Shown here piece after piece: positions 1,543 through 43,093 of a stretch of DNA of 64,000 nt. Numbering within the stretch: the stretch's first letter is position 1; each line of letters starts with the position of its first letter. Origin of the DNA: an uncultured candidate division WWE3 bacterium (GTDB lineage: Bacteria; Patescibacteriota; WWE3; UBA101185; UBA10185); assembly GCA_963765125.1 (NCBI GenBank), contig CAVXUZ010000005.1:97596-161595 (forward strand). The letters are read 5' to 3'. The notes under the pieces were generated by a model that worked only from the letters and a program-made list of their open reading frames with translations, had not been told where the DNA came from and searched no databases. Position numbers and translations under genes: made by a program.

Positions 1543-2546
1543 CTGTAGATCATTCCTCCGTAAAGCTTTCTAATATCATCAATACCAAATCTTTGCATAA
1601 CTAGGCGGTCGAGTCCCATTCCAAATGCAAAGCCAGTATATTTTTCAGGGTCGATTCCGCACATTTTTAAGGTGTTGTAATGAATCATCCCGCTGCCTAA
1701 AACCTCAATAAAACCTCTTTGTTTACAGACTGCACAGCCATCCCCGTTGCAGAATCTGCATTTCATATCCACACCCATCCCCGGAGAGACCTCTGGATAA
1801 TATTTATATCGGTATCGTAATTCCACGTCTTCGCCGAATAAAAATTTATGAAACGCTTCAAGCGTACCTTTGAGATGTTCCATTGTAATTCCTTCATCAA
1901 CGACAACTCCCTGATACTGGTGAAAAAATGCAGCGTTTGTATTATTTAAAGTTTCATTTCTAAAACATTTTCCAGGAAATGCAGCTCTAATAGGAGGTTT
2001 CTGCTCAGTTAGTATTCTAGCTTCAATGGATGAGGTATGTGACGACAATAAAACATCACCACCAATAAAAAGTGTATCTTGAAGATCTGTTGCAGGATGA
2101 CCTTCGGGTAAATTCAATTTTCTAAAATTAAACTCCTCGGTTTCGATTTCCGGCCCTTCAACTATCGAGTATCCGTAATATCTAAAAAAATCATTCATTT
2201 CTCTAATTACTTGCGTTGTTGGATGAAGCATTCCTGCTGAGGCGGGTCGTTCCGGGTAAGTTAAATCAATTAACGGGTCTGTAAGTGTGAGTTCTTGAAC
2301 TTCTACTTTTCTTTTTTCGACGTCTGCCTTAAGTTCATTTTGTAAAGTATTTATAATAGGGCCAAATTCTTTTTTTCCTTCTATTGGGAGCTCAGCCAAC
2401 ATTTTCATTATTTCAGTCACTTGGCCATGTTTTTTAGAGAAGAGCCCAAGGTAAACAGCGTCAAGCTCTGCTATAGACGTAGATTTATCAATTTTTTCTT
2501 TTGTGGATTTATTAACTTCGTTAATCTTTGCTTCAATCGGGTTCAT
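1539..2546 (-). CDS. pheS: Phenylalanine-tRNA ligase alpha subunit
   Basis: 335-aa ORF with class II aaRS motifs (FPGKCFRNE, GFAFGMGLDRL); conserved position upstream of pheT. Confidence 0.95.
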   Translation of the reverse strand: MNPIEAKINEVNKSTKEKIDKSTSIAELDAVYLGLFSKKHGQVTEIMKMLAELPIEGKKEFGPIINTLQNELKADVEKRKVEVQELTLTDPLIDLTYPERPASAGMLHPTTQVIREMNDFFRYYGYSIVEGPEIETEEFNFRKLNLPEGHPATDLQDTLFIGGDVLLSSHTSSIEARILTEQKPPIRAAFPGKCFRNETLNNTNAAFFHQYQGVVVDEGITMEHLKGTLEAFHKFLFGEDVELRYRYKYYPEVSPGMGVDMKCRFCNGDGCAVCKQRGFIEVLGSGMIHYNTLKMCGIDPEKYTGFAFGMGLDRLVMQRFGIDDIRKLYGGMIYR

Positions 2547-2585
2547 ATGGAACAGGCCTTATACTTTATTATACCTAAGAAAAGA

Positions 2586-2945
2586 TTACTTATTAAAGGT
2601 TTCTTTTACTTTAAGTACTACCTGTTCAAATGCGCTGGGTTGGGTTACAGCCAAATCTGATAGTGATTTTCTGTCTAATTCAATTTTTGCTGTTTTTAAA
2701 CCTTTAATAAATGTACTGTAGTTTACTTCAAAAGGTTTCAATGCAGCGTTTATTCTTACAATCCAAAGTCTTCTCAACGCTCTTCGTCTTATTTTTCTTC
2801 CACCAAATGCGCGCTCGCCTGATCTAAGAACAGCCTCATGAGCTCTAGCAAAAAGCTTGCTTCTTGTTCCTCTATAACCCTTAGCAAGTTTTACAATTTT
2901 TGCATGTTTTGCGTGTTTTCTTTGTCCGTTTTTAACTCTAGGCAT
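2586..2945 (-). CDS. rplT: 50S ribosomal protein L20
   Basis: 119-aa basic protein [26 protein letters not shown]...; sits in the infC-rpmI-rplT operon. Confidence 0.95.
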
Positions 2946-3141
2946 GATTTCCTAACATCTTTCTTAATTTTTTAATATGACCTTTATTGCCTACAGATAC
3001 TTTTCTTAGTTTTCTAAATCTTTTACTGGTGCTCCATTTAACTTTAAGGTGGCCGGTATTTATTTGGCCATGAACAAGTTTTCCTGTTTTTGTAACTCTA
3101 AATCTTTTTAGTAATGTTTTTCTTGTTTTTAGTTTTCCCAT
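2938..3141 (-). CDS. rpmI: 50S ribosomal protein L35
   Basis: 67-aa Lys/Arg-rich [24 protein letters not shown]... between infC and rplT. Confidence 0.9.
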
Positions 3142-3145
3142 ATTT

Positions 3146-3691
3146 TTATATTTTCACGAACGTTGCCGTAATTAAATTACCTTTTAGCTTTATATCGCGC
3201 TCTTCTACCTTTGCTACGTCCCTTAACTCATTAATTACGTGCTCAATCTTTTTCATGCCGATATCTGGGTAGATCATTTCTCGGCCTTTGAACTTGACGC
3301 TAATTTTAACCTTATTTCCCTCTAAAAGAAACTCCCTAGTTCTTGCGATTCTGACTTGAAGGTCTCCTTCGCCAATTGTGGGTCCAAAGATAAACTCTTT
3401 AATCTCACTTTTATGCGATTTTGCCTTAACAGCCGACATCTTTTTACGTTCTTCGTATAAAAATTTGCTGTATTCAAGTATTTTCGCAACGGGAGGATTA
3501 GCTTTTTCAGAGATTAAGACTAAATCCAATTCCTCATTTCTTGCTCTTCTCAAAGCATCTTGAGTACTAACAACACCGATGTTTTCGCCTTTGCTACCAA
3601 TCAATCTTACTTCAGGCGCCCTGATTCTCTCATTGACGAAGTGTTTTTCTCGCTTAAAGTAACGGTTTGCCTGTTTAAAAATAAATGCCAT
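3146..3691 (-). CDS. infC: Translation initiation factor IF-3
   Basis: 181 aa with IRAPEVRLIGSKGENIGVVS... typical of IF3 N/C domains; lies immediately after thrS. Confidence 0.9.
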   Translation of the reverse strand: MAFIFKQANRYFKREKHFVNERIRAPEVRLIGSKGENIGVVSTQDALRRARNEELDLVLISEKANPPVAKILEYSKFLYEERKKMSAVKAKSHKSEIKEFIFGPTIGEGDLQVRIARTREFLLEGNKVKISVKFKGREMIYPDIGMKKIEHVINELRDVAKVEERDIKLKGNLITATFVKI

Positions 3692-19365: not shown

Positions 19366-19707
19366 CTACCAGTGAATTAGCCTAATGAGAAAATACATTA
19401 ATTTCTCGAGTAAATTTACCAGTAGAACTACCAAGAGTGGAACTGTAACTACGAATAAGATTCCCAAGATGGATACATCTGTATTAGTGAGTACCCAAAA
19501 AAAGCCTCTTTTCTTAACCATGCGGCAACGTTCAAGCTCCTTAGATATGTCGTACAGCCACTGGTCATCCTCGTCGATCTCTCCTAGTATTGGTTTAGTT
19601 TTCATCCAGTTATCATAAAAAGTCTGCCAATCCTGTGGCCAGTATCCTATGACATGTCTAGCATTCCATAACTCTTGGTTTGACGATAGACTAACCTTTC
19701 GTAGCAT
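19366..19707 (-). CDS. Hypothetical small protein with C-terminal TM (paralog of 19840-20139)
   Basis: 113 aa; shares the W.QDWQTFYDNW / KEWQAFYDHQ motif with its neighbour. Confidence 0.45.
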   Translation of the reverse strand: MLRKVSLSSNQELWNARHVIGYWPQDWQTFYDNWMKTKPILGEIDEDDQWLYDISKELERCRMVKKRGFFWVLTNTDVSILGILFVVTVPLLVVLLVNLLEKLMYFLIRLIHW

Positions 19708-19839: not shown

Positions 19840-20139
19840 CTATAAAAGCAACAAAAGAAAAAACAATAAGAATGGAACAGCAGTTAACAACGATACGTTA
19901 AGATAAAAAAGAAACTGCTTGTGTTGATAAATTATTGCTGCTGTTTTTTCTTTGACCAATCCTGCTAACAATAGCTGCTGAGCAAGGTGATACATGTAAC
20001 CGAGGTCATCATCCTCACTAAAGTTTTCAGCGGTAAGAATTTGGTGATCGTAAAATGCCTGCCACTCCTTTGGCTTTTCACCAATTATTAAAGTTACATT
20101 CTGCAGTTCTACAGGTAGTGCCGCTGTGCTGTTTTCCAT
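19840..20139 (-). CDS. Hypothetical small protein with C-terminal TM (paralog)
   Basis: 99 aa; see 19366-19707. Confidence 0.45.
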   Translation of the reverse strand: MENSTAALPVELQNVTLIIGEKPKEWQAFYDHQILTAENFSEDDDLGYMYHLAQQLLLAGLVKEKTAAIIYQHKQFLFYLNVSLLTAVPFLLFFLLLLL

Positions 20140-21700: not shown

Positions 21701-21785
21701 GAATATTGTGTTGGATTAACTTTTTTAGAACCATTCTATTTTCTATTATTGCACACTAATAAGTTGAAAAATTACTATACTTACA

Positions 21786-22145
21786 TGCAACGTGGGAAGA
21801 CCTATACCCTGGCAGTATTTGACACCCAGACGCAGGTACTGGGGTTTCCTCAGATTCTTTTAGGTGAAGGATATTGCACTCCCCTTGGAGAACTAAAAAA
21901 AGATATAAAAAGTGCAATAAAAGGGAAATTTGCTTTAGAGGAACAATACCATTCATACCAAGCAGCTTGTTGATCATGCGTGGCAAGGTTCTGGATTGGG
22001 CAATCAGAATGCATACAGAGCACCAGCTCAGGCAGTTGAATGCTTTTGGACAACTTGTGTAAAAGTTGGAAATGGCGAGCTGACGGCTGAGGAAGGTTTT
22101 GCGTTTTTTGTTGAAATGTGGAATAGGTATTGGGTTGCCCCATAA
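21786..22145 (+). pseudogene. Hypothetical ~120-aa protein interrupted by a +1 frameshift near 21970
   Basis: The frame of ORF 21692-21973 (MQRGKTYTLAVFD...) continues in the +1 frame as ...HAWQGSGLGNQNAYRAPAQAVECFWTTCVKVGNGELTAEEGFAFFVEMWNRYWVAP*, with no start codon of its own. Confidence 0.35.
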
Positions 22146-22159
22146 TATCCACAAAGTAA

Positions 22160-22619
22160 ACGGAGCTAAATAAGTTAGATTATCTAACCGCTCCTGAAGA
22201 ATATACGCAAGACTTCATAAAATTCTTATGCGTAAAATGATTTCTCATAGGAGGTATTTGTTGACAATATTGTCGCAGATGCCTCCTGTTTTTTTGTAGG
22301 GTATTTATAGAAGGCTTTATTTATAACTATTTTTTCTTCAAATAAATTTCAATAATTAACGGTCTTCATCAATCTTGATATTTAAAATACCCTATGTTAA
22401 GGTTGCCTCAGAGCTACTCGCATGAATCGGTGTTGGGAACAAGAGAAAATATACATTGCAGAGGTCCAATAGACCGATCGGTTGTCAGAATTCTGATGAC
22501 TTGAGTTTTGGTGAAAATGTGCGCCACTTTCTGAAGAACAATAGGAGAAGCTCACTGGGGCTATCAAGTGATAACACCGCTTGGTAGCCCTGAACTTTAA
22601 AAATCTAAGGAGAAGGAGA
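22160..22619 (+). ncRNA. Candidate structured non-coding region upstream of the RT (possible retron msr/msd)
   Basis: Non-coding and dense in perfect palindromes/hairpins: GGAGC..GTTAGATtATCTAAC..GCTCC (22172-22205), AGGAGG..GACAATATTGTC..CCTCCT (22250-22288), ACCGATCGGT and TCAGAATTCTGA (22462-22498). Same strand as the RT and immediately upstream of it. Confidence 0.35.
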
Positions 22620-23572
22620 ATGAGTAGAGGAGAAAAACGAGTTATTGAGACTTGGGAATACGCAAGTTTGGCGTGGTTATCAAAAGAGGCCAAAATTAAT
22701 GTTTGGACGTTGAGCGCAGTACTAACTAAATGTCGAACGGAGTCTTTAATTGATCGTCTCTATCGTACGGTAGAAGTACCAAAACACGGTGGTGGTAAGC
22801 GCGTAATATCTGTTCCTGACCCAGACTTACTCAAAGTGCAAAAGGCTATTAATGATCGCATTTTGAAAGAACTGCCTAGACCATCCATGCGCGTTTGGTT
22901 TTTCCGGAGGTAGCATTATTGAAGCTATTAGACCGCACTTGAAAAACAAAGTGTTGTATTCCTTTGATGTAGTAAATGCATTCGGGCAAATAGAACGTCA
23001 ATATCTTCGGTATGCACTTCGTGGACATTCTTTCAAAGATAATTGAAGAAGTACTTTTTGATCTTGCCTTTTGGAAAGGAAATCTTCCACAAGGGTCGGC
23101 AATGAGCCCAAGACTATTTGACCAGGCTTTTTATAAAACTGACACGCGAATTGCACGGCTAGCTAAGAAACTTGGAGGTGTTTACACACGCTACGCAGAC
23201 AACATCTTTTTTTCTTTACCAAGGAACCACTTTCCAGCAAAATTGCAGAGTGCTGCTCTTCGTCGAGTGCGGGCATTGGATGGGTATTTTTTCGATTGCC
23301 ACGAATTTTCAATTCGTAGATTGGACAAAGGCGCGGTTAGAATTTTGGGACTAAACATAATAAACGGAGAGCTAAGCGCTACCCGTGATTATAAGCGCAA
23401 CCTTCGCCTTGCTGTGCATCACGTAAATTACTTGGTTGACAACGAGCTTCCTTATTTCATTGAATGGTCGCGTCTCCAAGGACAAATGGCTTTTGGTGTT
23501 TTAGGTTTCTTACCAAATTCATTAATAGAAGCTTATTCATCATTAGAAGAAAGAATTAGTAACACAAAATAA
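22620..23572 (+). pseudogene. Retron-type reverse transcriptase, degenerate (two +1 frameshifts; YADD replaced by YADN)
   Basis: Frame A 22620-22913 has RT domain 1 (GGGKRVISVPDPDLLKVQKAIN). The +1 frame 22868-23045 has domain 2 (AFGFSGGSII...LYSFDVVNAFGQI). The next +1 frame 23012-23572 has domains 3-7 (LPQGSAMSPRLFD, YTRYADNIFFS, RILGLNI). AAGGAGAAGGAG RBS before the ATG at 22620. Confidence 0.75.
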
Positions 23573-23673
23573 TAACGTCTAGATTTCCCACAAAGGAACC
23601 TGGACGTTTTTTTTTGCAATGTTTCATCGAAATGAATAGTGAGATTGTTTAGTAGCTCTAAAAAACGTATATT

Positions 23674-23719: not shown

Positions 23720-24289
23720 TCAGACTTCATTTGAAAGTTCAAAATTTCTTTCGAAGTAATCTGCAGGCAACCGATTTTTGAGTATTTCTCCCCGTTCTTG
23801 AAGTGAGAGTTTATACCAATCTGGTACATCAGTTAAATGCCCAATTATACAAATCCACTCCAATCTGTCTTTTTTGTCCAGTGTGCTTGATCCAAATGTG
23901 GTGATTTTGCGAAAAAGGTTGTAAGAACCACCACCTATAGTTTGAAACTCAGGCCAACCTAGCGATGCACCTCCACCATCGGTTATTTGGGGCATGAATT
24001 CGTAGCTAACATCCAGAAGAGTCTGTGCTGGTTTTCCTCCTTTTAGCCACCATTTAATATCCTCTCTTATCTTTTCTTCTTTTTCTGCTCTCTGTTTCTG
24101 TTTTAGTTTCTGTCTCTGTTTTAAATTTAAATAGAGTTTAAAACCTAAAATGAAGACAGCAAAAACAAAAGCGGGTATTAACGAAAAAAGAAAGGAATTT
24201 TCTTTGTATGACGAGTACCCAATTAACACGCAAACTGCGTAAAACAAAGCAACTTCCCAAATGGGACTAAATTCTCTGAGCTTTTTCAT
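23720..24289 (-). CDS. Hypothetical membrane-anchored protein
   Basis: 189 aa with two N-terminal TM helices; convergent with the RT. Confidence 0.45.
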   Translation of the reverse strand: MKKLREFSPIWEVALFYAVCVLIGYSSYKENSFLFSLIPAFVFAVFILGFKLYLNLKQRQKLKQKQRAEKEEKIREDIKWWLKGGKPAQTLLDVSYEFMPQITDGGGASLGWPEFQTIGGGSYNLFRKITTFGSSTLDKKDRLEWICIIGHLTDVPDWYKLSLQERGEILKNRLPADYFERNFELSNEV

Positions 24290-24492: not shown

Positions 24493-25017
24493 TTGTTTCG
24501 ATCTAAGTCACATTTAAAAAAACTTGAAAATTCTATAAATGAACTAGCAGTAATTATGTTTACGCACATTGTAAATACTATTGACAAGAGCTATGGAAGC
24601 TCTAATAATAATATTACTATGTTTAATAATGAAAGTTCTTCACAAATACCAGATAGCGCAGATGAGGCTATACATGAGGAAAAAAGTCTAGAAAATAATC
24701 CCGAATCTTTGCAGTTAATTTGTGAAGCTGCAAAAAAATCAGGCAAAGACCTACCTTTATTTTTGCTTGACGTTGGCGCGCAAATGATAAGATACCGAAA
24801 TGATTACGATGAATCTGTAAAAAAAGAAAGAGATCTAGGCGTTGAAAGATACAGACCGGATCCTTCTATTGATCCTAAATTTCAGCAAGAGTTGTTAAGG
24901 AATTCCATAATGACTGTGGAAACTGGCGTGGTTGGACCTAATGATAGCCTCATTGATACATGGGTTGCTTCGATTAAAAAGCTACGCGATGAGGGTAAAC
25001 TGCAGGATAAGCATTAA
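24493..25017 (+). CDS. Hypothetical protein
   Basis: 174 aa; shares a DP.FQ..L.RN.I motif with 25596-26186. Confidence 0.4.
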   Translation: MFRSKSHLKKLENSINELAVIMFTHIVNTIDKSYGSSNNNITMFNNESSSQIPDSADEAIHEEKSLENNPESLQLICEAAKKSGKDLPLFLLDVGAQMIRYRNDYDESVKKERDLGVERYRPDPSIDPKFQQELLRNSIMTVETGVVGPNDSLIDTWVASIKKLRDEGKLQDKH

Positions 25018-25595: not shown

Positions 25596-26186
25596 CTAAT
25601 TATTTAAGTCTTGTAACAAACAAAAAAGTGTGTTGTCCAAGTTCCGCATTTTACAACAAAATATACTAACTTGATTTTTTAAAGTTTCAAAATAGTCATT
25701 AGACTTTGGGTCCTCGTATTTGTCGTAAGCTTCTTGAATAAGCATTGTCAACTCATGCAACCATGATTCATAGAGTCTAGTATCCATGCTCTTCATAGTA
25801 GGTGAAAGCGCGTTATCTTCAATTTCAGCACTAATTGGTAGGGGAAAACTTTTTGGGTACTTTTGTGATAGATACACGAAAAAATTATCTGCTATGGAAA
25901 GTCTCTCGTCGAGTTTAGGCATTTCGGGCGCGTCTTGAATGGGTACAGGAAAACCCGCACTTTTAAATTCCGATACCTCAATCATATTTCTGGCTAGTTG
26001 TTTTTGAAACTCAGGATCTAATATACTCTGGGTCTCAGTGTTATAGCCGCTCTTTTTAATTTCTTCAGCCCAGTAGCTATTTTGTAGTAATCCCCCATCG
26101 AGCTTCTTGTCCAAGTAATCATAATTTATGGGTTTTTCATTTTCGGTGTGGGTGTCTTCTTGATTATAAGTCTCAAAGTTAAGCAT
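25596..26186 (-). CDS. Hypothetical protein (single gene enclosed between tRNA-Pro and its 3'-end duplicate)
   Basis: 196-aa ORF. Confidence 0.45.
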   Translation of the reverse strand: MLNFETYNQEDTHTENEKPINYDYLDKKLDGGLLQNSYWAEEIKKSGYNTETQSILDPEFQKQLARNMIEVSEFKSAGFPVPIQDAPEMPKLDERLSIADNFFVYLSQKYPKSFPLPISAEIEDNALSPTMKSMDTRLYESWLHELTMLIQEAYDKYEDPKSNDYFETLKNQVSIFCCKMRNLDNTLFCLLQDLNN

Positions 26187-42076: not shown

Positions 42077-42135
42077 ACTTACATCTTACCATTAGTTACA
42101 AATAGATAAAAACGCGCTTTAATAACAAAAAAAGC

Positions 42136-43093
<958 letters not shown>

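What the first reader, a model, noticed from the sequence alone, without database searches (positions are those of the whole stretch)
22160..23572. Retron-like locus: palindrome-dense non-coding region immediately upstream of a short RT whose YADD box reads YADN and which carries two +1 frameshifts
The RT has domains 1-7 in order across three frames and is only about 320 aa. It has no maturase/X or endonuclease domain and carries an SP rather than an SQ motif, which is more retron- or Abi-like than group-II or DGR. The 460-nt region upstream on the same strand is non-coding and packed with perfect palindromes that could form the stacked hairpins of an msr/msd RNA. The two catalytic aspartates being YADN would inactivate polymerisation if real. 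This is either a decayed retron, an RT repurposed for binding, or an artefact-laden intact retron (see the frameshift finding). A frameshifted ~120-aa ORF lies just upstream (21786-22145) and a 2-TM protein is convergent downstream, as possible effector candidates. The locus is GC-richer than its surroundings.
Basis: partly seen in the sequence, partly recalled or inferred. Interest (0 to 1): 0.65.

Follow-up and report, generated by a model that had tools for sequence, protein, structure and literature searches.

The report
Frameshifted retron-like RT with partner RNA
This is a broken copy of a reverse transcriptase gene and its partner RNA, from a previously undescribed retron-like family in tiny Patescibacteria, whose members all carry an unusual Asp-to-Asn change in the enzyme's active site and have no toxin gene beside them.

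Summary
The reverse transcriptase (RT) is real (22620-23572, +) and is read in three frames through two +1 shifts. Its fold and sequence are retron-type: the best PDB matches are Ec86, Eco2 and Eco7. Group II, DGR and UG/Abi affinities are far weaker.

YADN is not decay. 128 of 128 clade members have Asn there, and their YADD relatives form the sister group.

Only part of the 460-nt upstream region matters. The conserved RNA spans 22408-22590 and has its own promoter. Its parts are:
- a covarying closing stem;
- an invariant unpaired G next to that stem;
- a variable hairpin;
- an invariant GUCAGAAYUCUGAC hairpin;
- an unstructured stretch of about 48 nt;
- a terminator-like hairpin.

This RNA precedes the RT in about 45 independent loci, and it sits before each RT copy in one tandem duplication. 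No Rfam family matches it.

No effector is conserved. The neighbours are housekeeping genes (cysS, hisS, efp). The upstream ORF and the 2-TM protein have no counterparts at other loci.

Deleting one base near 22881 and one near 23030 restores a 316-aa ORF scoring 412 bits, at the top of the family. The breaks are therefore very recent or are consensus errors.

Verdict: a retron-like RT plus ncRNA of a new variant kind. Its function and its DNA product are unproven.

The parts
22375..22403 (+). Sigma-70-type promoter of the ncRNA: -35 TTGATA (22375-22380), 17-nt spacer with TG, -10 TAAGGT (22398-22403). The inferred transcription start is about 22408-22411.
   Evidence: In 26 of 37 related loci the best TTGACA-N16-18-TAnnnT match ends 7-10 nt before the closing stem. 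Scores of 10/12 or better occur in 27% of loci against 2.4% of shuffles. Coordinates checked.
22408..22556 (+). Conserved ncRNA core (covariance model R1).
   Evidence: cmsearch gives 74.4 bits, E 3.6e-17, as the only hit in the 64-kb window. There is one + strand hit in front of every family RT. Covariation: 93% of cells are paired against 30-44% for slid controls, with 133 double-change cells against 14-44 and 0 of 500 shuffles reaching the observed values. No Rfam family matches.
22411..22419 (+). P1 5' strand (a2-like), GAGCTACTC. It pairs with 22545-22553.
   Evidence: RNAalifold helix; all 8-9 pairs show compensatory changes across loci.
22420..22420 (+). Unpaired G immediately 3' of P1, the candidate branching/priming G. 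It faces G22544.
   Evidence: The 5'-TCG and GGA-3' columns are invariant in the 28-sequence alignment. The position matches the retron priming G (PMC7736814; PMC10849725).
22426..22478 (+). P2, a hairpin of variable length (stem ATCGGT/ACCGAT at 22426-22431 and 22473-22478).
   Evidence: The base helix covaries, with all 4 of 4 pairs showing double changes. The loop varies from about 10 to about 90 nt between loci.
22480..22501 (+). P3, a near-invariant hairpin GGTTGTCAGAATTCTGATGACT (core GTCAGAAYTCTGA). It is the candidate RT handle or template boundary.
   Evidence: The core occurs exactly once per family locus and always upstream of the RT. There are 9 pairs; the 5 inner pairs are invariant or nearly so, and 3 outer pairs show compensatory changes.
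22502..22544 (+). Single-stranded stretch of 43 nt (41-61 nt in the family), the candidate template.
   Evidence: The length is constrained (mean 48 nt). It has no more structure than shuffled sequence (mean z = 0.09 over 39 loci). Weak motifs are UUA near P3, a GC-rich centre, and a terminal G next to P1.
22545..22553 (+). P1 3' strand (a1-like), GAGAAGCTC.
22558..22606 (+). Terminator-like GC-rich hairpin (22558-22590, 14 bp by the fold, which takes 22557-22591, -22.4 kcal/mol) with a T/A-rich tail TGAACTTTAAAAATCT.
   Evidence: All 39 loci have a strong hairpin (-11 to -32 kcal/mol) starting 1-11 nt after P1. In 27 of 39 there are at least 4 T in the next 9 nt.
22607..22619 (+). Ribosome-binding site AAGGAGAAGGAGA of the RT.
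   Evidence: Read directly from the sequence.
22620..23572 (+). Retron-type reverse transcriptase of the YADN clade, interrupted by two 1-nt insertions. Frame A runs from 22620 to about 22881, frame B to about 23030, and frame C to 23572.
   Evidence: Pfam RVT_1 1.5e-16. PADLOC retron RT models score up to 4e-38. Intact homologues of 35-62% identity cover 95-99% of it. All 41 family-invariant residues are kept. The repaired ORF scores 412 bits on the family HMM.
22877..22882 (+). Frameshift 1: one extra base, most likely one C of the CC in AGACCATCC.
   Evidence: Deleting it gives ...ELPRHPCAFGFSGGS, which matches P0002 ...LPRHPSAFGFSGGS. This deletion gives the best HMM score.
23025..23033 (+). 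Frameshift 2: one extra base within GACATTCTTTC.
   Evidence: The best HMM score comes from deleting 23030, and neighbouring positions are nearly as good.
23196..23210 (+). Motif 5 / C, R-Y-A-D-N: the catalytic loop with Asn in place of the second Asp.
   Evidence: Read from the frame C translation. Invariant in 128 of 128 clade sequences.

Best explanation
The locus is one copy of a two-part module, a small RNA gene plus a reverse transcriptase gene. The module defines a deep clade of retron-type RTs found almost entirely in Patescibacteria (the 'YADN clade', about 80 clusters at 50% identity).

Shown:
- The RNA has its own promoter.
- Its ends pair in a 9-bp covarying stem, P1, which resembles the retron a2/a1 repeats.
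- An invariant unpaired G sits directly 3' of the 5' strand of P1.
- A variable hairpin (P2) and a sequence-invariant hairpin (P3) follow.
- Next comes an unstructured stretch of about 48 nt and of fixed length, which runs back to P1.
- A terminator-like hairpin separates the RNA from the RT ribosome-binding site.
- The RT keeps every polymerase motif, including the motif-A Asp and the aromatic residue in the position of the HIV-1 Y115 / MMLV F155 'steric gate' (D..NAF). The one exception is that the second Asp of YADD is always Asn.

Inferred:
- The RT binds its RNA, probably through P3.
- It uses the 2'-OH of the conserved G as primer, as retron RTs do.
- It copies the 48-nt stretch from the base next to P1 (a G) towards P3, making a short, hairpin-less msDNA-like product.
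- RT mRNA arises by read-through of the terminator, so the RNA is in excess over the enzyme.
- Because no effector gene travels with the module, the RNP or its DNA product either works with an unlinked partner or has a non-toxin role.

In this window the RT is interrupted by two single-base insertions, so as written it cannot be made. Nothing else in the gene or the RNA is degraded, so the breaks are either very recent or are errors of the consensus sequence.

The confidence of 0.6 is a blend. I put about 0.85-0.9 on the identity (a retron-like RT plus cognate ncRNA of a distinct YADN clade, with this copy interrupted). I put about 0.4 on the specific mechanism (G-primed copying of the 48-nt stretch).
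For: RT type:
- PADLOC retron RT models are the only strong hits.
- The profile search of PDB gives Ec86 3.7e-32, Kva2, Ec67, Ec83, Ec78 and Eco8, against 1e-13 for group II RTs and 1e-7 for Drt2.
- The AF2 model (pLDDT 92) matches 17 retron RT chains first, at TM about 0.7.
- The best NCBIfam model is retron_St85_RT.

Clade and YADN:
- RYADN is invariant in the 20-sequence alignment and in 64 of 64 close hits.
- It is present in nearly all of the top 80 or so representatives from an exhaustive HMM search.
- Average-linkage clustering splits 128 YADN sequences from 59 YADD sequences exactly.

RNA:
- The core hairpin occurs once per locus.
- RNAalifold finds P1, P2 and P3.
- The CM finds one hit per RT, including both copies in the L035 tandem.
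- The 48-nt region is unstructured.
- Promoter register is, and the terminator-like hairpin.

Retron-like geometry follows the criteria of PMC10849725: an inverted repeat longer than 8 bp, a priming G near the 5' end, hairpins next to the RT, and a first templated base that is usually G.

No effector.

State of this copy.
Against: - No DNA product, RNA transcript or enzyme activity has been observed for any member.
- The second Asp of YXDD is a metal ligand, and by my recollection of HIV-1 RT mutagenesis its loss inactivates that enzyme. Polymerisation is therefore an assumption. It is supported only by the retention of all other catalytic motifs and by the analogy with viral RdRps, which work with GDN (Mononegavirales) or ADN (birnavirus) in the same motif.
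- The candidate template has no long hairpin, which reviews treat as a universal msd feature (PMC8632793).
- The G follows CTC rather than the usual TTA.
- The NAXXH and VTG signatures are only partly kept.
- A terminator between the RNA and the RT is not a canonical retron feature. It could equally mean that the RNA is a cis-acting leader.
Confidence: 0.6

Rival explanations
1. The frameshifts are consensus or assembly errors, and the locus is intact and functional in the organism.
For: - All three shifts in this locus, and the one other shift I found in the window (the TrxB-like gene at 42106-43093), are +1. Each can be explained by one extra base in a short run: CC, TTT, TT and A5.
- A housekeeping thioredoxin-reductase-like gene is unlikely to be a true pseudogene in a reduced genome.
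- The repaired RT scores 412 bits, at the top of the family. It has no in-frame stops and keeps all 41 invariant residues.
- The ncRNA, promoter and hairpin are intact.
Against: - The rest of the window is well assembled: 89% lies in long ORFs, and many exceed 500 aa.
- Three shifts in 1.8 kb against one found in the other 62 kb is strong clustering. My estimate is about 0.03 expected, but the survey for other shifts was heuristic, not exhaustive.
- The runs involved are short, which is not typical of homopolymer miscalls.
- Sporadic split RTs also occur at other loci (L007, L075, L077-79).
Confidence: 0.4
2. The YADN RT is not a processive polymerase. The conserved RNA is a cis-acting leader or protein-binding RNA: the RT binds P3/P1 and sets terminator read-through (autoregulation), or the RNP acts through RNA binding only.
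For: - A metal-ligand Asp has been invariably replaced.
- The RNA ends in a terminator-like hairpin placed between the promoter and the RT RBS in all 39 loci. This is the layout of an attenuator.
- There is no msd-type hairpin.
- There is no effector to be held in check by msDNA.
Against: - Proteins that keep an RT fold without catalysis usually lose several catalytic residues. This clade keeps the motif A Asp, the first motif C Asp, LPQG..SP, the RT1 Lys/Arg and the aromatic gate over about 60% sequence divergence.
- The fixed 41-61 nt length of an unstructured segment bounded by P3 and by a stem with an adjacent invariant G is what a template needs. A leader does not need it.
Confidence: 0.2
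3. It is a fragment of a group II intron, a DGR, or a UG/Abi (for example UG38) reverse transcriptase rather than a retron relative.
For: - DGRs dominate the RT content of CPR genomes (PMC8632793).
- A small CPR-specific UG/Abi group, UG38, exists (PMC9226505), and I could not compare it by sequence.
- The family falls below the NCBIfam retron cut-off: 121-149 bits against 235.
Against: - No group II intron RNA or other Rfam family is found in the window or in the loci.
- There is no X/maturase or endonuclease domain.
- There is no TR/VR-type repeat of the upstream region in the window, and motif 4 reads SP rather than SQ.
- Sequence and fold searches rank retron RTs 10 to 20 orders of magnitude above group II, Drt2, DRT9 and DGR RTs.
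Confidence: 0.04
4. The +1 shifts are programmed (ribosomal frameshifting or transcriptional slippage) and form part of the gene's expression.
For: All shifts go in the same direction.
Against: - About 55 independent homologues are single uninterrupted ORFs across both sites.
- The few other split copies break at different places, and some break by -1.
- Shift 1 is not at a stop codon or a slippery motif.
Confidence: 0.02

Closest known systems
Retrons (for example Retron-Eco1/Ec86, Eco2/Ec67, Eco7/Ec78, Kva2)
   Same: - The RT sequence and fold are closest to these.
- The ncRNA lies directly upstream on the same strand.
- The 5' and 3' ends of the RNA pair in a 9-bp inverted repeat.
- A conserved unpaired G sits at the 3' end of the 5' strand.
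- Stem-loops follow the G.
- The base next to the 3' strand is G, the usual first templated base (PMC10849725).
- The H of region X and the G of VTG are kept.
   Different: - YADD is replaced by YADN in every member.
- NAXXH reads AIxPH, and VTG reads (I/M)LG.
- The G follows CTC rather than TTA.
- The would-be msd is about 48 nt, unstructured, and has no long hairpin.
- A terminator-like hairpin lies between the RNA and the RT.
- There is no effector gene or fused effector domain.
- Neighbours are housekeeping genes with synteny kept over deep divergence, rather than defence islands or prophages.
- The host range is almost entirely Patescibacteria.
'Orphan' retrons without an associated protein (about 25% of retrons; the Ec107/Eco5 branch) discussed by Mestre et al. 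2020 (PMC7736814)
   Same: An RT plus ncRNA with no linked effector. Those authors left the same open question: an effector acting in trans, or a different function.
   Different: Those orphans belong to ordinary YADD/VTG retron clades and are thought to have lost a PRTase partner. This is an entire deep clade that never shows a partner and has its own active-site signature and RNA architecture.
Single-gene RT plus ncRNA defence systems of the UG/Abi lineage (DRT2/UG2, DRT9/UG28)
   Same: The system consists of an RT and an upstream structured ncRNA only. The DNA product itself, not a co-encoded toxin, is the effector. In DRT2 a stem brings the ends of the template together.
   Different: - Sequence and fold similarity are much weaker: Drt2 at 1e-7, and DRT9 at TM 0.55.
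- There is no C-terminal alpha-repeat domain.
- The RNA loop length varies from about 110 to about 190 nt because of P2, which argues against a coding rolling-circle template of the DRT2 kind.
Viral RdRps with Asn in motif C (GDN of Mononegavirales, ADN of birnaviruses). This comparison is from my own knowledge and was not tested here.
   Same: The same palm-domain position, the second acidic residue of motif C, is Asn in enzymes that are catalytically active.
   Different: They are unrelated polymerases that make RNA. The comparison shows only that Asn at this position need not abolish catalysis.

Membership tests
Retron | RT belongs to the retron/retron-like RT lineage | tested here: met
   The best HMM, PDB-profile and fold matches are all retron RTs. 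However, scores lie below NCBIfam's curated cut-off (121-149 against 235 bits), and no retron type stands out. No joint phylogeny with the Mestre set was run.
Retron | Catalytic YXDD box in RT5 | tested here: not met
   YADN in 128 of 128 clade sequences; YADD in the sister sequences.
Retron | Region X NAXXH motif (H the most conserved residue; PMC7736814) | tested here: inconclusive
   Aligned to Ec86 N-A-T-P-H, the family reads A-I-x-P-H. P and H are invariant, and N and A are lost.
Retron | Region Y VTG triplet in RT7 (G the most conserved residue) | tested here: inconclusive
   The family reads (I/M)-L-G in R.LGLN. G is invariant, and V and T are replaced.
Retron | ncRNA adjacent to the RT, with complementary 5' and 3' ends (a1/a2 inverted repeat longer than 8 bp) | tested here: met
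   P1 is 9 bp, and every pair shows compensatory change across 39 loci. 93% of cells are paired against 30-44% in slid controls.
Retron | Conserved branching G at the end of a2 | tested here: inconclusive
   An invariant unpaired G is in the right place, although its context is CTC-G rather than TTA-G. Branching itself cannot be tested with these tools.
Retron | msr with short stem-loops | tested here: met
   P2 (variable) and P3 (invariant) follow the G.
Retron | msd folds into a long hairpin (10-50 bp stem) | tested here: not met
   The 41-61 nt segment between P3 and P1 folds no better than shuffled sequence (mean z = 0.09).
Retron | Associated effector gene or fused domain (about 75% of retrons) | tested here: not met
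   No neighbour is conserved across the family. The neighbours are CysRS, HisRS, EF-P, PGI, DnaX and similar housekeeping genes. N-terminal extensions have no Pfam domain.
Retron | Production of msDNA (a branched RNA-DNA molecule) | not testable with these tools
   Needs expression followed by PAGE or sequencing with and without DBR1 and RNase.
Group II intron | Intron RNA domains (V/VI) flanking the ORF, and a maturase X domain | tested here: not met
   Rfam finds only tRNAs in the window and nothing at the locus. Pfam finds RVT_1 only. Group II RTs match at 1e-13 against 1e-32 for retron RTs.
Diversity-generating retroelement | Template/variable repeat pair and an SQ-type motif 4 | tested here: not met
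   The upstream region has no repeat anywhere in the 64 kb. Motif 4 is QGSAMSP. A DGR RT is only fold hit number 31.
UG/Abi RTs (including CPR group UG38) | Membership of the UG/Abi lineage, with a C-terminal alpha-repeat domain | tested here: inconclusive
   Drt2 and DRT9 are much weaker matches than retron RTs, and the protein ends after a short thumb.

The most novel reading that the evidence does not exclude
The YADN clade is a domesticated, mostly vertically inherited RT-RNA particle of Patescibacteria that is not a toxin-antitoxin defence system. In this reading an Asn-substituted active site makes a short defined single-stranded DNA from a 48-nt internal template bounded by an invariant hairpin, or the enzyme only primes. 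The product serves a cellular function, possibly tied to the translation genes it sits beside (cysS, hisS, efp). That would be a new functional class of prokaryotic reverse transcriptase.
Probability: 0.2. Interest if true: 0.85.

Novelty: new variant of a known kind. Interest (0 to 1): 0.62.

Why it matters
Every characterised retron pairs its RT and msDNA with a toxic effector, and every one has YXDD. This finding exposes a deep clade that breaks three of the usual rules together:
- the active site reads YADN;
- the template has no hairpin;
- no effector is present.

The clade also sits next to core genes in bacteria with minimal genomes. It comprises about 80 clusters at 50% identity, found almost entirely in Patescibacteria.

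The case gives a natural test of whether the second motif-C aspartate is dispensable for RT chemistry. It also bears on the open question of what 'orphan' retrons do (raised in PMC7736814). The RNA is absent from Rfam 15, and the module is compact (about 190 nt of RNA plus about 320 aa of protein), so it could be tested directly in E. coli.

The particular copy in this window is interrupted. Its value is as the pointer to the family, not as a working example.

Tried and rejected
- Effector candidates: the upstream ORF has no homologue in 5.8 billion proteins. Neither it nor the 2-TM protein occurs at any related locus or hits PADLOC or Pfam.
- DGR: no TR/VR repeat.
- Group II intron and known RNA families: nothing in Rfam at gathering or at E <= 10.
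- Programmed frameshift: rejected, because homologues are intact and the other split copies break elsewhere.
- The 10-nt perfect repeat 22297-22306 / 22385-22394 as a1/a2: rejected. It is not conserved, and it spans the promoter rather than the conserved RNA.
- A long msd hairpin: looked for and not found.
- A small ORF in the 48-nt stretch, and an SD-like reading of the invariant GGAG: no conserved start codon follows.
- A DRT2-like rolling-circle coding template: unlikely, because the loop length varies with P2.
- Phage origin: the core clade is absent from IMG/VR. Only distant YADD retron RTs and two borderline YADN hits without the RNA were found.
- Literature: no paper in the library mentions YADN in an RT, or retrons in Patescibacteria, Saccharibacteria or Parcubacteria.
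- UG38 supplementary data were not available.
- The look-up of encoding contigs could not locate the window's own contig.
Full report
**1. What is in the sequence**

Translating 22560-23600 in three frames shows one RT whose motifs run in order through frame A, frame B and frame C:
- Frame A, from ATG 22620: ...PKHGGGKRVISVPDP...QKAINDRILKELPR.
- Frame B: HPCAFGFSGGSIIEAIRPHL...FDVVNAFGQ...
- Frame C, to TAA 23572: ...LPQGSAMSPRLFD...YTRYADNIFFS...LGLNIING...

Both transitions are +1. Pfam finds only RVT_1.

The upstream ORF (21785-22145) also needs a +1 shift. A 189-aa ORF with two N-terminal hydrophobic helices lies convergent at 23720-24289. The locus is slightly richer in GC than the window (40.1% against 36.2%), but other stretches reach 42-45%. 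The 480 nt upstream fold better than shuffled sequence (z = -4.7).

**2. The RT is retron-type and belongs to a distinct clade**

- The reconstructed protein hits PADLOC retron RT models and nothing else strongly (RT_III-A 4e-38, RT_II-A 2e-34, and many other types at 1e-23 to 1e-31).
- A profile of 20 homologues finds retron RTs first in the PDB: Ec86 3.7e-32, Kva2, Ec67, Ec83, Ec78 and Eco8. Group II RTs come at 1e-13, Drt2 at 1e-7, and R2 at 1e-4.
- An AlphaFold model of homologue P0006 (pLDDT 92) has 17 retron RT chains as its best Foldseek matches (TM about 0.7). Group II, G2L4, DRT9, DGR and DRT2 follow.
- NCBIfam's best model is retron_St85_RT at 121-149 bits, below its 235-bit cut-off. 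All 22 tested members hit all PADLOC retron types about equally.

The family is thus retron-like but falls in none of the catalogued types.

**3. YADN is a family trait, not decay**

- The homology search returned 87 proteins. P0002-P0064 are single intact ORFs of 35-62% identity covering 95-99% of the query. Where they are named, they come from Pacebacteria, Moranbacteria or the Patescibacteria group.
- In the alignment, R-Y-A-D-N is invariant. So are GFSGG, PH, the motif A Asp (D..NAF), LPQG..SP..FD and LGLN.
- All 64 close hits have RYADN. All but one of the more distant hits (P0072) have RYADD.
- An exhaustive HMM search of 1.84 billion representatives gives about 80 clusters above roughly 170 bits. 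Nearly all of these are YADN, and they are followed by ordinary YADD retron-type RTs.
- Average-linkage clustering of 187 sequences splits exactly into 128 YADN and 59 YADD at the first division. The mean within-clade distance is 0.61.

The Asn is therefore an old, fixed signature of a deep clade.

Against Ec86, the retron signatures are only half kept: NAXXH reads AIxPH, and VTG reads (I/M)LG (definitions from PMC7736814).

**4. The partner RNA**

Upstream regions of distant loci share short, nearly identical blocks. The core GTCAGA..TCTGA occurs exactly once per family locus and always upstream of the RT.

An unbiased search for the best long-range stem found, in most loci, a 5' strand ending in CTC followed by G, paired to a 3' strand starting with GAG. 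The sequences differ between loci. Examples are TGCTGCTC/GAGCAGCA, GCTGTGCTC/GAGTGCAGC, TGGTTGCTC/GAGCAACCA and GTGTAACTC/GAGTTACAT.

RNAalifold on 28 sequences predicts P1 (closing stem), P2 (base of a hairpin of variable length) and P3 (the invariant hairpin).

A covariance model finds one + strand hit in front of every family RT, including members not used to build it. In the window it finds only 22408-22556 (74.4 bits, E 3.6e-17). L035 carries two RNA-RT modules in tandem, and each RT has its own RNA.

On 39 sequences:
- 93% of cells are paired, against 30-44% when partners are slid;
- 133 cells have changes on both sides, against 14-44 in the slid controls;
- 0 of 500 shuffles reach the observed values.

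Other features of the RNA:
- The segment between P3 and the 3' strand of P1 is 41-61 nt (mean 48) and no more structured than shuffled sequence (mean z = 0.09). It carries only weak motifs.
- A promoter of the form TTGACA-17-TAnnnT ends 7-10 nt before P1 in 26 of 37 loci. The window has TTGATA and TAAGGT at 22375-22403.
- Every locus has a strong hairpin 1-11 nt after P1, and in 27 of 39 it is followed by a T-rich tail. The window's hairpin is at 22558-22590.
- No Rfam family matches.

- two non-conserved hairpins;
- the terminator of the upstream ORF (22249-22295);
- the promoter;
- the real RNA;
- its terminator-like hairpin.

**5. No effector, and a housekeeping context**

Clustering all ORFs of 79 loci shows no neighbour shared across the family. 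The commonest downstream genes are CysRS (9 of 33 non-redundant loci), EF-P (4) and PGI (3), and HisRS in the branch nearest the window. Upstream genes include DnaX, helicases and GtrA. No Toprim, NDT, PRTase, TIR, protease, HNH/ATPase or 2-TM effector appears.

The RT-cysS adjacency persists between genomes whose CysRS proteins are only 35-40% identical. This points to long vertical inheritance rather than defence-island traffic.

The window's upstream ORF has no homologue anywhere. Neither it nor the 2-TM protein occurs at other loci. The core clade is absent from IMG/VR viral contigs. The window's genome is itself a Patescibacteria genome.

**6. The frameshifts**

About 55 independent homologues are uninterrupted. 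The few other split copies (L007, L075, L077-79) break elsewhere or by -1. Programmed frameshifting is therefore rejected.

I deleted one base at each candidate pair of positions and scored the product against the family HMM. The lesions localise to 22877-22882 (best: one C of the CC at 22881/2, giving ELPRHPCAFGFSGG, which matches P0002) and to 23025-23033. The repaired 316-aa ORF scores 412 bits, among the best in the family. All 41 invariant residues are kept and there are no in-frame stops.

The window is otherwise well assembled (89% in long ORFs). One other gene, a thioredoxin-reductase-like ORF at 42106-43093, is also split by a +1 shift, consistent with an extra A in an A5 run.

So four +1 shifts are known in the window, and three of them lie within 1.8 kb. 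A broken housekeeping gene argues for sequence error. The clustering argues for real, recent decay of a dispensable locus, or for a locally poor consensus. I cannot decide between these without reads.

**7. Mechanism**

Shown: a retron-type RT is strictly coupled to an RNA that has
- a closing stem with an adjacent invariant G;
- two stem-loops;
- a fixed-length single-stranded segment.

Inferred: retron-style 2'-OH priming from that G, with copying of the 48-nt segment towards P3. This fits the operational retron criteria and the finding that the first templated base is usually G (PMC10849725). It departs from them in the CTC context, the missing msd hairpin, the terminator, YADN and the missing effector.

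Whether YADN supports polymerisation is unknown. Two arguments favour activity: the conservation of every other catalytic motif, and (from my own knowledge) the existence of active GDN and ADN viral polymerases. The alternative is an RNA-binding or autoregulatory role, and I give it about 0.2.

**8. Novelty**

I found no description of this clade, of YADN in RTs, or of retrons in Patescibacteria. One caveat remains: UG38, a small CPR group of UG/Abi RTs (PMC9226505), could not be compared directly.

I file the finding as a new variant of a known kind: retron-like, but failing the YXDD, msd-hairpin and effector features. The copy in this window is interrupted.

Noticed in passing
window 42106-43093 (+): A thioredoxin-reductase-like gene (Pfam Pyr_redox_2 positions 1-234 and 218-291) is split by a +1 frameshift. 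The split is consistent with one extra A in the AAAAA run near 42846. It is the only other frameshift I found in the window.
   Followed up: partly
L035 474-3277: Two complete ncRNA-plus-RT modules lie in tandem (RNA 474-661 with RT 741-1802, then RNA 1908-2097 with RT 2150-3277). The RNA and the RT therefore duplicate as one unit.
   Followed up: partly
L002, L004, L036-L040, L046-L048, L052, L055, L065 (cysS); L015, L018, L023, L029 (hisS); four further non-redundant loci (efp; members not itemised): The RT is repeatedly followed by translation genes: CysRS on the same strand, sometimes only 62 nt away; HisRS; or an EF-P gene. The cysS adjacency survives down to 35% CysRS identity. I did not establish whether this is functional or only conserved synteny.
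   Followed up: partly
P0092 (L005 1176-3119), P0098, P0095, P0108, P0055, P0029: Some clade members carry N-terminal extensions of 100-300 aa that are variable, often strongly acidic, and have no Pfam domain.
   Followed up: partly
window 22297-22306 and 22385-22394: A perfect 10-nt inverted repeat (TAGGGTATTT / AAATACCCTA) brackets an AT-rich 78 nt that includes the -35 element of the ncRNA promoter. It is not conserved at other loci.
   Followed up: no
window 21785-22145 (+): An orphan ORF of about 120 aa needs a +1 shift near 21965 and is followed by a clean hairpin-T7 terminator (22249-22295). It has no homologue in the 5.8-billion-protein collection.
   Followed up: yes
window 24493-25017 (+) and 25596-26186 (-); also 19366-19707 (-) and 19840-20139 (-): By eye these form pairs of small paralogous ORFs. 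One pair shares DP(K/E)FQ..L.RN.I, and the other shares (Q/K)(D/E)WQ.FYD with a C-terminal hydrophobic tail. No family was assigned.
   Followed up: no
L007 4839-5998; L075 671-1637; L077-L079: Other metagenomic copies of the RT, or of distant relatives, are also split by single frameshifts at different positions, some of them -1.
   Followed up: partly
P0125, P0129, P0147 (representative search): Proteins with two RT domains scored just below the clade, both domains being YxDD. P0129 additionally carries a protein kinase domain. They are not part of the YADN clade.
   Followed up: no
L074 / L117 (same 105,993-bp contig, listed in IMG/VR as viral); P0156, P0163, P0166: These are borderline RTs with YADN or YGDN at about 25% identity to the clade, and L074 and L117 lack the conserved RNA hairpin. 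They may mark the root of the D-to-N change.
   Followed up: no
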